A stretch of DNA of 64,000 bases from Escherichia coli (GTDB lineage: Bacteria; Pseudomonadota; Gammaproteobacteria; Enterobacterales; Enterobacteriaceae). This document shows, piece after piece, positions 61,262-61,654 of this stretch (position 1 is the first letter of the stretch; every line of letters begins with the position of its first letter). Under the pieces are notes generated by a model, which was given only the letters and a program-made list of their open reading frames with translations, did not search any database and was not told the DNA's origin. A program made the position numbers and the translations under genes. The DNA lies in NCBI RefSeq assembly GCF_045037415.1, contig NZ_CP173438.1; one strand, given 5' to 3'.

Positions 61262-61417
61262 TTACTCCTCAGGTTCGTAAGCTGTGAAGACAGCGACCTC
61301 CGTCTGGCCGGTTCGGAGTCGTACCTCGCAGAGGTCTTTCCTCGTTACCAGTGCCGTCACTATGACGGTTAAACAGATGACGATCAGGGCGATTAACATC
61401 GCCTTTTGCTGCTTCAT
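61262..61417 (-). CDS. hok: Hok/Gef-family type I toxin
   Basis: MKQQKAMLIALIVICLTVIVTALVTRKDLCEVRLRTGQTEVAVFTAYEPEE (51 aa) matches Hok/Gef family almost residue for residue; track ORF extends upstream in frame (mok-like leader). Confidence 0.85.
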   Translation of the reverse strand: MKQQKAMLIALIVICLTVIVTALVTRKDLCEVRLRTGQTEVAVFTAYEPEE

Positions 61418-61654
61418 AGCCTGCTTCCCCTTGCCTTTCGGCACGTAAGAGGCTAACCTACATTTGTGAGACATAGATTGGGCCTCAGATTAATGTTAAG
61501 CGTCTTGCAGGACGCGAAATGTTAACTGGGGCTTTTCTCTATCTGCCTTTCAGTGTTCATGCCTGAGACAGATAGCCTCAAGCACCCGCAGCCATTCTAC
61601 TTAACTCACGTCACCTCGCCAATATGAAATCAATCAGAAAGGTGATCCATAAAA

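What the first reader, a model, noticed from the sequence alone, without database searches (positions are those of the whole stretch)
61262..61650. Hok/Gef-type type I toxin locus inside the prophage nin region
The 51-aa product is a near-canonical Hok family member. The in-frame upstream extension and about 230 bp of structured upstream sequence fit the mok/sok arrangement, with the antisense RNA expected on the plus strand. This may stabilise the prophage or contribute to abortive infection.
Basis: partly seen in the sequence, partly recalled or inferred. Interest (0 to 1): 0.4.

Follow-up and report, generated by a model that had tools for sequence, protein, structure and literature searches.

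The report
Prophage hok/sok toxin–antitoxin locus (hokD/hokW type)
This is an intact copy of the well-known hok/sok "host-killing" toxin and antisense-RNA antidote pair, sitting in a lambda-like prophage of E. coli; matching DNA occurs in 4937 of 5426 complete E. coli genomes, so it is ordinary rather than new.

Summary
On the minus strand, 61262-61417 encodes a 51-aa Hok/Gef peptide (Pfam PF01848, E = 1.9e-22; PHROG 251 "MokW-like host killing", E = 4e-33). It is identical to a RefSeq HokD protein and 50/51 identical to K-12 HokD (RelF). The 170-nt leader matches Rfam RF01794 at 120.5 bits (threshold 59).

All canonical hok mRNA elements can be mapped: promoter, 5' tac element, ucb, mok Shine-Dalgarno sequence and start, hok Shine-Dalgarno sequence, 3' fbi element and terminator. 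The upstream reading frame (mok) is in frame with hok, as in K-12 mokC/hokC. A 77-nt Sok antisense gene lies on the plus strand at about 61466-61542. The predicted full-length mRNA pairs its first 12 nt with the fbi element. Once the 3' end is removed, the predicted fold switches to the tac/ucb form.

The locus lies between the replication genes and Q of a lambdoid prophage. Matching DNA occurs in 4937 of 5426 complete E. coli genomes. [quoted passage not shown]

Two corrections apply. The unit extends about 100 nt beyond the stop codon, to about 61164. The Rfam "sok" model matches the hok-sense strand, not the Sok RNA itself. Novelty: already known.

The parts
61594..61622 (-). hok promoter: -35 TTGGCG (61617-61622), 17-nt spacer, -10 TAGAAT (61594-61599)
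   Evidence: Consensus scan, 9 of 12 matches. It aligns with the R1 hok promoter and lies the same 6 nt from the +1 position.
61166..61587 (-). Predicted full-length hok mRNA (about 422 nt); +1 at 61587, 3' end in the terminator U-run
   Evidence: +1 is inferred from the alignment to R1 and hokC and from the start of the Rfam model. Fold.
61576..61587 (-). tac (translational activator) element, GGGUGCUUGAGG, at the 5' end of the mRNA
   Evidence: Pairs with fbi in the full-length minimum-energy structure and with ucb in the 3'-truncated structure. Occurs only once in the window.
61412..61587 (-). hok mRNA leader matching Rfam RF01794 ('sok', CssrC), model positions 1-157 of 157
   Evidence: 120.5 bits, gathering score 59. 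The hit is on the hok-sense strand, as it also is for K-12 hokC, R1 and the Stx2 phage.
61528..61534 (-). ucb (upstream complementary box / anti-Shine-Dalgarno), AAGCCCC, mRNA nt 54-60
   Evidence: Pairs with tac in the truncated mRNA. The canonical ucb/mok-SD closed form is only 0.5 kcal/mol above the minimum-energy structure.
61449..61486 (-). Sok-target hairpin (mok SD/dcb stem) carrying the mok Shine-Dalgarno sequence (UGAGGCC, 61481-61487) and the mok AUG
   Evidence: Hairpin at nt 102-139 in the folds, and in the Rfam consensus structure.
61262..61474 (-). mok reading frame: 70 codons, in frame with hok (adds MSHKCRLASYVPKGKGKQA at the N terminus)
   Evidence: ORF list. Same arrangement as K-12 mokC/hokC. 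Relatives with an out-of-frame mok (phage Rac 442/2, R1, hokB) show that the frame is variable.
61262..61417 (-). hok toxin gene, 51 aa; Shine-Dalgarno sequence AAGGGGAAG at 61424-61432
   Evidence: Pfam PF01848 E = 1.9e-22; PHROG 251. Identities: 51/51 to RefSeq WP_000813262.1 (HokD), 50/51 to K-12 HokD, 46/51 to the Stx2-phage-I Hok taken to represent HokW.
61276..61279 (-). TACG motif at the Tyr47 codon: candidate TadA A-to-I editing site (the A at 61278), which would recode Tyr to Cys
   Evidence: Motif read from the sequence. The codon and the 25 nt upstream of it are identical to K-12 hokD, whose mRNA is reported to be edited at this Tyr (PMC5630033). Editing is inferred, not tested here.
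61231..61252 (-). GC-rich 3'-UTR hairpin (GGCGGGGGAGAAAUCCCUCGCC)
   Evidence: Present in all folds; conserved in relatives.
61198..61210 (-). fbi (fold-back inhibitory) element, CCUCAACGCACCC
   Evidence: Pairs with nt 1-12 in the minimum-energy structure. Duplex energy is -21.5 kcal/mol, reached by 7 of 4949 random 96-nt segments of the window. One base pair (U:A against C:G) differs compensatorily from the plasmid R1 group.
61164..61191 (-). Intrinsic terminator of the hok mRNA (hairpin 61174-61191, followed by the U-run UUUUGUUUUUUU)
   Evidence: Terminator scan; coordinates.
61431..61459 (+). Sok promoter: -35 TTGCCT (61431-61436), 17-nt spacer, -10 TAACCT (61454-61459)
   Evidence: Coordinates. 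The same hexamer at the same place appears to be what the sokW promoter-less construct of PMC8621323 replaces; this is inferred from primers YO-421/422. The site is below the threshold of the consensus scan.
61466..61542 (+). Predicted Sok antisense RNA, about 77 nt: single-stranded 5' tail (61466-61479), long hairpin (61480-61534), U-rich 3' end
   Evidence: Ends placed by collinearity with the annotated K-12 sokC. Fold energy is -29.6 kcal/mol, z = -4.8. 69/77 identical to the sokW-type sequence.

Best explanation
This is an intact hok/mok/sok type I toxin-antitoxin module of the hokD/hokW subgroup, carried in the nin region of a lambdoid prophage.

The mechanism below is the established model for the family, with each element mapped onto this sequence.

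1. A constitutive promoter makes a stable hok mRNA of about 420 nt. Its first 12 nt (tac) pair with the fbi element in the 3' UTR. This fold-back, together with pairing of ucb to a Shine-Dalgarno sequence, keeps the full-length RNA untranslatable and unavailable to Sok.
2. Slow 3'-exonucleolytic trimming removes fbi. tac then refolds onto ucb, which exposes the hairpin carrying the mok Shine-Dalgarno sequence and start codon.
3. While the DNA is present and Sok is transcribed from the plus strand, the 5' tail of the unstable 77-nt Sok RNA pairs with that hairpin. This blocks mok translation, and therefore the coupled hok translation, and the duplex is cut by RNase III.
4. When Sok supply falls, Mok and Hok are translated. 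The 51-aa Hok inserts into the inner membrane and collapses the membrane potential. TadA editing of the Tyr47 TAC codon to a Cys codon may modulate potency.

The most likely physiological role, by homology to hokW-sokW of Sp5, is loss of Sok on prophage induction followed by Hok production, which hastens lysis and phage release. Prophage addiction and exclusion of other phages are possible additional roles.

Shown here: sequence membership, all cis elements, and the predicted alternative folds. Inferred: transcription, toxicity, processing, editing and physiological role.
For: - Peptide: Pfam HOK_GEF E = 1.9e-22; PHROG 251 E = 4e-33; 50/51 identical to K-12 HokD and 51/51 to a RefSeq HokD protein.
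- Leader: RF01794 at 120.5 bits.
- Fold-back: tac/fbi pairing appears in the minimum-energy structure of the 422-nt RNA. The R1-type mRNA, used as a positive control, gives the same feature. The duplex energy of -21.5 kcal/mol is matched by 7 of 4949 random window segments. tac and fbi differ compensatorily between the prophage and plasmid groups.
- Switch: 3'-truncated RNAs (ends at 377, 370 and 350) fold into the tac/ucb stem and keep the mok-SD hairpin. The canonical closed form lies 0.5 kcal/mol above the minimum.
- Sok: promoter-like site, single-stranded tail, and hairpin with a U-run only on the plus strand. It is collinear with the annotated sokC.
- Context: the window is 99.99% identical over 8.85 kb to an annotated E. 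coli prophage with the order queH, hokD, DUF968, rusA, Q; PHROG assignments agree.
- Distribution: 4937 of 5426 complete E. coli genomes have matching DNA, as do 102 phage records, annotated MokW, HokD, 'host killer' or Hok.
- Experiments on the close homologue hokW-sokW: toxicity, neutralisation by sokW, partial RNase III and Hfq dependence, RecA-dependent HokW production after mitomycin C, and a two-fold lower phage yield in the deletion mutant (PMC8621323).
- Family model: PMC9841398.
Against: - No expression or toxicity data exist for this particular allele.
- The Sok -10 hexamer (TAACCT) matches the consensus at only 3 of 6 positions and was not found by the consensus scan.
- The hok Shine-Dalgarno sequence here is AAGGGGAAG, against AAGGAGAAG in all aligned relatives; the effect is unknown.
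- In the unconstrained minimum-energy structure, ucb pairs with the GGGG of the hok Shine-Dalgarno sequence rather than with the mok Shine-Dalgarno sequence.
- Chromosomal hok loci tested earlier did not mediate post-segregational killing (statement in bioRxiv 10.1101/2025.08.07.668861).
- NCBIfam Hok models score below their curated cut-offs: 49.1 bits against 73, and 38 against 89.
Confidence: 0.9

Rival explanations
1. The locus is a silent relic. It would be structurally hok-like but functionally dead, as reported for most K-12 chromosomal hok loci, and retained only because the prophage DNA is young.
For: - K-12 hokD has lost its whole leader and sok (alignment).
- K-12 hokC and a plasmid hokD copy have IS elements just downstream that remove fbi.
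- The literature notes that chromosomal hok loci failed to give post-segregational killing.
- This allele has a variant hok Shine-Dalgarno sequence, GGGG.
Against: - Every element is intact and collinear with the experimentally active hokW-sokW locus.
- There is no IS element, frameshift or stop codon.
- The predicted folds reproduce both regulatory conformations.
- 445 records carry the sequence at 99% identity or more.
Confidence: 0.07
2. The main role is prophage addiction, that is, post-segregational killing of cells that excise or lose the prophage. The stable hok mRNA would outlive the unstable Sok, as on plasmid R1.
For: - The cis architecture is the same as that of R1 hok/sok, including the stable folded mRNA and the short antisense RNA.
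- hok genes are enriched four-fold in prophages (bioRxiv 10.1101/2025.08.07.668861).
Against: - No direct test exists.
- Chromosomal hokA, hokB and hokC loci did not mediate post-segregational killing.
- In Sp5, Hok production follows induction and benefits phage release, rather than punishing prophage loss.
Confidence: 0.25
3. The main role is exclusion of superinfecting phages by abortive infection. Shut-off of host transcription by the infecting phage would deplete Sok, and Hok would kill the cell before the burst.
For: R1 hok/sok on a high-copy plasmid lowered the T4 plating efficiency by 42% and plaque size by about 85% (cited in PMC8621323). Prophages commonly carry defence genes.
Against: - There is no PADLOC model match for Hok or for four of its neighbours.
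- hok is not enriched near defence systems (section heading and discussion of the bioRxiv paper).
- The R1 effect was weak and depended on copy number.
Confidence: 0.2

Closest known systems
hokW-mokW-sokW of Stx2 phages Sp5 / 933W (E. coli O157:H7)
   Same: - Same position in a lambdoid phage and the same orientation as Q.
- About 92% DNA identity over the locus.
- Hok 46/51 identical, against the Stx2 converting phage I sequence taken to represent HokW.
- 70-aa in-frame mok.
- Identical tac and fbi sequences.
- The same 16-18-nt extension of the Sok hairpin relative to hokC and R1.
- Sok of 77 nt, 69/77 identical, with the same TAACCT -10 hexamer.
   Different: - Five C-terminal or central residues differ: I34L, V45T, D46A, S49P, K51E.
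- Six of the eight Sok differences fall in the first 16 nt, which cover the 5' tail and the first bases of the stem. This is the region that pairs with the start of mok, so the two Sok RNAs may not cross-protect (inference).
- The hok Shine-Dalgarno sequence is GGGG rather than GGAG.
- The flanking genes differ: queH upstream here.
E. coli K-12 hokD (relF) in the cryptic prophage Qin
   Same: The peptide is 50/51 identical. The 3' UTR, fbi and terminator are conserved. The prophage neighbourhood is similar, with a DUF968 gene (ydfU) and Q downstream and ydfABC beyond.
   Different: K-12 hokD has homology only from about 15 nt upstream of the ATG. Its promoter, tac, ucb, mok and sok are replaced by relBE. 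The window therefore carries the complete form of the locus.
E. coli hokC (gef) / mokC / sokC
   Same: mok is in frame and shares its stop codon with hok. Sok starts 9 nt inside mok. tac is identical (GGGUGCUUGAGG). The RF01794 hit is 118 bits.
   Different: The peptide shares 40 of 50-51 residues. Sok is 59 nt, without the extended hairpin. In K-12 the 3' end is disrupted by IS186.
hok/mok/sok (parB) of plasmid R1
   Same: The overall architecture is the same, and the tac/fbi fold-back is reproduced by the same folding procedure. The Pfam and Rfam families are the same.
   Different: The peptide shares only 23 of 51-52 residues. mok is out of frame (59 nt upstream of hok). tac/fbi are GGCGC/GCGCC rather than GGUGC/GCACC. 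The context is a plasmid, where the proven role is post-segregational killing.

Membership tests
hok/sok (Hok/Gef) type I toxin-antitoxin family | Peptide of about 50 aa with an N-terminal transmembrane helix and the conserved Hok/Gef domain with Cys | tested here: met
   Pfam PF01848 covers positions 1-42 of 42, E = 1.9e-22; PHROG 251 E = 4e-33. Cys30 lies in the DLCEV motif.
hok/sok (Hok/Gef) type I toxin-antitoxin family | Conserved structured hok mRNA leader | tested here: met
   RF01794 matched over the full model at 120.5 bits against a gathering score of 59. The hit is on the same strand as in K-12 hokC, R1 and the Stx2 phage.
hok/sok (Hok/Gef) type I toxin-antitoxin family | Long-range pairing of the 5' tac element with the 3' fbi element in the full-length mRNA | tested here: met
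   12 bp with one bulge in the minimum-energy structure. Energy is -21.5 kcal/mol, reached by 7 of 4949 control segments. A compensatory difference separates this group from the R1 group. The R1 positive control behaves the same way.
hok/sok (Hok/Gef) type I toxin-antitoxin family | Alternative tac/ucb stem after 3' truncation, and a closed form in which ucb masks a Shine-Dalgarno sequence | tested here: met
   The truncated folds show the tac/ucb stem. The forced ucb/mok-SD form is -166.6 kcal/mol against a minimum of -167.1. This rests on thermodynamic prediction only.
hok/sok (Hok/Gef) type I toxin-antitoxin family | Overlapping mok reading frame with its own Shine-Dalgarno sequence upstream of hok | tested here: met
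   70-codon ORF from 61474, with GAGG 9 nt upstream. It is in frame, as in mokC.
hok/sok (Hok/Gef) type I toxin-antitoxin family | Antisense Sok gene opposite the mok start: promoter, single-stranded 5' tail, terminator hairpin | tested here: met
   Features mapped to 61431-61542 on the plus strand; collinear with annotated sokC. The promoter is weak against the consensus and was missed by the scan. Transcription itself could not be tested.
hok/sok (Hok/Gef) type I toxin-antitoxin family | Hok is toxic and Sok neutralises it; RNase III cleaves the duplex; the mRNA is processed at its 3' end | not testable with these tools
   Shown for the homologue hokW-sokW (PMC8621323) and for R1 (reviewed in PMC9841398).
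HokD (RelF) orthologue group | Near-identity to E. coli HokD | tested here: met
   50/51 identical to K-12 HokD and 51/51 to WP_000813262.1, which RefSeq names HokD. The NCBIfam HMMs list only the generic Hok and HokA models, both below their cut-offs.
Catalogued anti-phage defence systems (PADLOC-DB v2) | Match to a defence-system protein model | tested here: not met
   No family matched Hok or four of its neighbours.

The most novel reading that the evidence does not exclude
Because hok lies inside the early-right operon and points the same way, de-repressed pR transcription at induction may run through the locus. In the annotated twin locus, no intrinsic terminator is predicted between cro and hok. 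The hok terminator is the first one on that strand, at the place where lambda has its nin-region terminators. Read-through could occlude the convergent Sok promoter and also flood the cell with Sok targets. That would explain mechanistically why sokW RNA vanishes and HokW appears only after RecA-dependent induction. The hok terminator could also act as a nin-type checkpoint ahead of Q.
Probability: 0.2. Interest if true: 0.3.

Novelty: already known. Interest (0 to 1): 0.08.

Why it matters
It matters little as a discovery. The family has been studied since the 1980s, prophage copies are already annotated as mokW or hokD, and the Sp5 homologue was characterised in 2021.

The locus is useful in three ways:
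- It shows that the first-stage reading was accurate.
- It is an example of the complete, undisrupted form of the locus that survives in E. coli K-12 only as the leaderless hokD (relF).
- It is a reminder that the Rfam 'sok' model reports the hok-sense leader, so its strand should not be used to annotate the antitoxin RNA.

The physiological role of prophage hok/sok loci is still an open experimental question. The candidates are a lysis helper, prophage addiction and phage exclusion.

Tried and rejected
1. I looked for a separate Rfam match for Sok on the plus strand, using permissive E-value thresholds over 61000-61800. Only RF01794 on the hok-sense strand was found, plus a chance snoRNA hit at E = 0.81.
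2. The consensus promoter scan did not find the Sok promoter. It was placed by homology instead.
3. The NCBIfam Hok and HokA models hit below their curated cut-offs, so naming rests on identity to HokD.
4. PADLOC gave no matches.
5. An automated tac/3'-UTR duplex search reported an 'fbi' for K-12 hokC lying inside IS186, at -17.4 kcal/mol. I treated this as chance. It led to the empirical null distribution.
6. A local fold of 25 nt either side of the TACG site is weak (-8.2 kcal/mol) and puts the editable A at a loop-closing pair. This is inconclusive for a TadA-like loop.
7. Plus-strand ORFs antisense to the locus were considered as alternative coding features: 71 aa at 61157-61372, 54 aa at 61284-61448 and 59 aa at 61039-61218. 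I rejected them. They overlap the conserved hok gene or its UTR, and the 59-aa ORF shrinks to 40 aa in phage Evi, even though it has its own PHROG family.
8. hokB from K-12 could not be added to the tac/fbi table because its 5' end did not match the search pattern.

Full report
**What is there.** On the minus strand the window carries a 51-aa ORF (61262-61417). An in-frame ATG 57 nt upstream (61474) extends it to 70 aa. The 51-aa product, MKQQKAMLIALIVICLTVIVTALVTRKDLCEVRLRTGQTEVAVFTAYEPEE, is a full-length Pfam HOK_GEF match (E = 1.9e-22). It also falls in PHROG 251, 'MokW-like host killing' (E = 4e-33). It is identical to RefSeq WP_000813262.1, which is named HokD. It shares 50/51 residues with K-12 HokD (RelF), 46/51 with the Hok of Stx2 converting phage I (taken to represent the Sp5/933W HokW type), 40 with HokC and 23 with R1 Hok. 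A whole-window Rfam scan found one hok-family hit, RF01794, at 61412-61587 on the minus strand. It covers the full model at 120.5 bits against a gathering score of 59 (E = 6.6e-27).

**A caveat on the Rfam 'sok' hit.** The hit lies on the same strand as hok. It begins at the inferred mRNA +1 and ends at the hok AUG. The same is true for K-12 hokC, where RefSeq annotates sokC on the opposite strand, and for R1 and a Stx2 phage. The model therefore describes the hok mRNA leader, which contains the complement of Sok. It confirms the locus but does not show that the antisense RNA exists.

**Anatomy.** I aligned the locus with R1-type hok/sok, K-12 hokC and hokD, phages Evi and Rac 442/2, and Stx2 converting phage I. 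I then located motifs. This gives the following map.
- hok promoter: -35 TTGGCG and -10 TAGAAT at 61594-61622. It is the only promoter-like site the scan found in the region.
- +1 at 61587.
- tac (GGGUGCUUGAGG) at 61576-61587.
- ucb (AAGCCCC) at 61528-61534.
- mok Shine-Dalgarno sequence and AUG inside a hairpin at 61449-61486.
- hok Shine-Dalgarno sequence at 61424-61432.
- Stop codon at 61262-61264.
- GC-rich 3'-UTR hairpin at 61231-61252.
- fbi (CCUCAACGCACCC) at 61198-61210.
- Intrinsic terminator at 61164-61191.

**Predicted folding of the hok mRNA.** The 422-nt predicted transcript folds with nt 1-12 paired to nt 378-390, which is the tac/fbi fold-back that defines hok mRNAs. The R1-type mRNA, treated the same way as a positive control, shows the same feature. 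The tac/3'-UTR duplex is -21.5 kcal/mol. Only 7 of 4949 random 96-nt segments of the same window reach this value. Prophage-type loci have GGUGC/GCACC where plasmid-type loci have GGCGC/GCGCC, a compensatory difference. When fbi is removed (3' ends at 377, 370 or 350), the minimum-energy fold switches to the tac/ucb stem and retains the mok-SD hairpin. The canonical closed form, with ucb paired to the mok Shine-Dalgarno sequence, lies only 0.5 kcal/mol above the minimum for the full-length RNA. These are thermodynamic predictions. They reproduce the published model (PMC9841398).

**The Sok gene.** On the plus strand, TTGCCT, a 17-nt spacer and TAACCT (61431-61459) precede a predicted start at 61466. 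That start is 9 nt inside mok, exactly as for the annotated K-12 sokC. The predicted 77-nt RNA (61466-61542) has a single-stranded 5' tail of about 14 nt, a long hairpin and a U-rich end (-29.6 kcal/mol, z = -4.8). A U-run follows the hairpin only on the plus strand. The -10 hexamer matches the consensus poorly, and the scan missed it. However, mutagenic primers in the hokW-sokW study appear to replace the same hexamer at the same position to make the 'promoter-less' sokW construct. The window's Sok is 69/77 identical to the sokW-type sequence. Six of the eight differences fall in the first 16 nt, which cover the 5' tail and the first bases of the stem. This suggests allele-specific recognition, which is an inference.

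**mok.** Here the upstream frame is in frame with hok. The same holds for K-12 mokC/hokC, which share a stop codon. It also holds for the 70-aa ORFs annotated in Stx2 phage I and in a STEC plasmid. In R1, K-12 hokB and phage Rac 442/2, mok is out of frame.

**Context and distribution.** Window 55150-64000 is 99.99% identical to an annotated E. coli chromosome segment. There the gene order is cI-like repressor, cro, ydaT, replication genes, DUF1627, DUF977, queH, hokD, a hypothetical gene, DUF968, rusA, Q, a DNA methyltransferase and tRNAs. PHROG matches for the window's own ORFs agree. This is the nin-equivalent region of a lambdoid prophage, and hok points the same way as Q. DNA matching the 511-nt query occurs in 4937 of 5426 complete E. 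coli genomes, with a median of 2 places per genome, and 445 records are at least 99% identical. It also occurs in 102 phage records, annotated MokW, HokD, 'host killer' or Hok, and in phage-like IncY plasmids. A recent survey reports hok in about 80% of Enterobacteriaceae genomes and a four-fold enrichment in prophages.

**Relation to K-12 hokD.** In K-12, homology starts only about 15 nt before the ATG, and the leader, mok and sok are replaced by relBE. The window carries the complete form of that locus.

**Function.** For hokW-sokW of Sp5, which is about 92% identical in DNA, the experiments gave these results (PMC8621323):
- HokW is toxic.
- sokW expressed from its own promoter neutralises it, and this depends partly on RNase III and Hfq.
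- sokW RNA disappears after mitomycin C, and HokW is then produced in a RecA-dependent way.
- HokW localises to the inner membrane.
- Deleting the locus delays growth arrest and halves phage yield.

By homology this is the best-supported role here. Prophage addiction and exclusion of other phages remain possible but untested. PADLOC has no matching model. An additional known layer of regulation probably applies. The Tyr47 codon is TAC within a TACG motif (61276-61279), with the same upstream sequence as K-12 hokD, whose mRNA is edited by TadA from Tyr to Cys (PMC5630033). My local fold was inconclusive on this point.

**Speculative extension.** In the annotated twin locus, no intrinsic terminator is predicted on the sense strand between cro and hok, and the hok terminator is the first. 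Read-through from pR at induction could therefore occlude the convergent Sok promoter. That might explain the induction-coupled loss of sokW, which the Sp5 authors left open. This is an inference only.

**Verdict.** The locus appears intact and is probably functional. Its novelty is nil and its interest is low.

Noticed in passing
window 61039-61218 (+): A 59-aa plus-strand ORF lies antisense to the hok 3' UTR and terminator. It is annotated 'hypothetical protein' (WP_001112740.1) in RefSeq, has its own PHROG family (2947, E = 1.6e-44), and is called 'Mobile element protein' (40 aa only) in phage Evi. It is probably an annotation by-product of conserved non-coding DNA.
   Followed up: partly
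window 61164-61191 (-); L001 6469-6486: In the annotated twin locus, the hok terminator is the first predicted intrinsic terminator on the sense strand between cro and Q. It occupies the position that lambda's nin-region terminators hold upstream of Q.
   Followed up: partly
window 61276-61279 (-): A TACG motif sits at the Tyr47 codon of hok. It is the same site at which K-12 hokD mRNA is reported to be A-to-I edited by TadA, recoding Tyr to Cys.
   Followed up: partly
window 61424-61432 (-): The hok Shine-Dalgarno sequence is AAGGGGAAG here, but AAGGAGAAG in every aligned relative. The extra G increases complementarity to the CCCC of ucb.
   Followed up: no
window 55751-55940 (-): There is a strong Rfam match to the sRNA STnc100 (132 bits) in the prophage late region, next to an iraM-like ORF (55390-55725, +).
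   Followed up: no
window 56637-56889 (-): Two tRNA genes lie downstream of Q and a DNA methyltransferase: anticodon CAT (called Ile in RefSeq) and Arg-TCT. This layout resembles the region upstream of stx in Stx phages, but I saw no stx gene.
   Followed up: no
window 18793-18978 (+) and 11736-11829 (+): The isrK and C4 antisense RNA families lie side by side, a phage immunity or anti-Q type module. The trp operon leader lies about 7 kb upstream of them. The window therefore spans chromosomal trp DNA and prophage DNA.
   Followed up: no
L009 715-960; L005 1-332: IS elements sit immediately downstream of hok in a plasmid hokD copy (IS421) and in K-12 hokC (IS186). In both cases the fbi region is removed, a recurrent way of disrupting these loci.
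   Followed up: no
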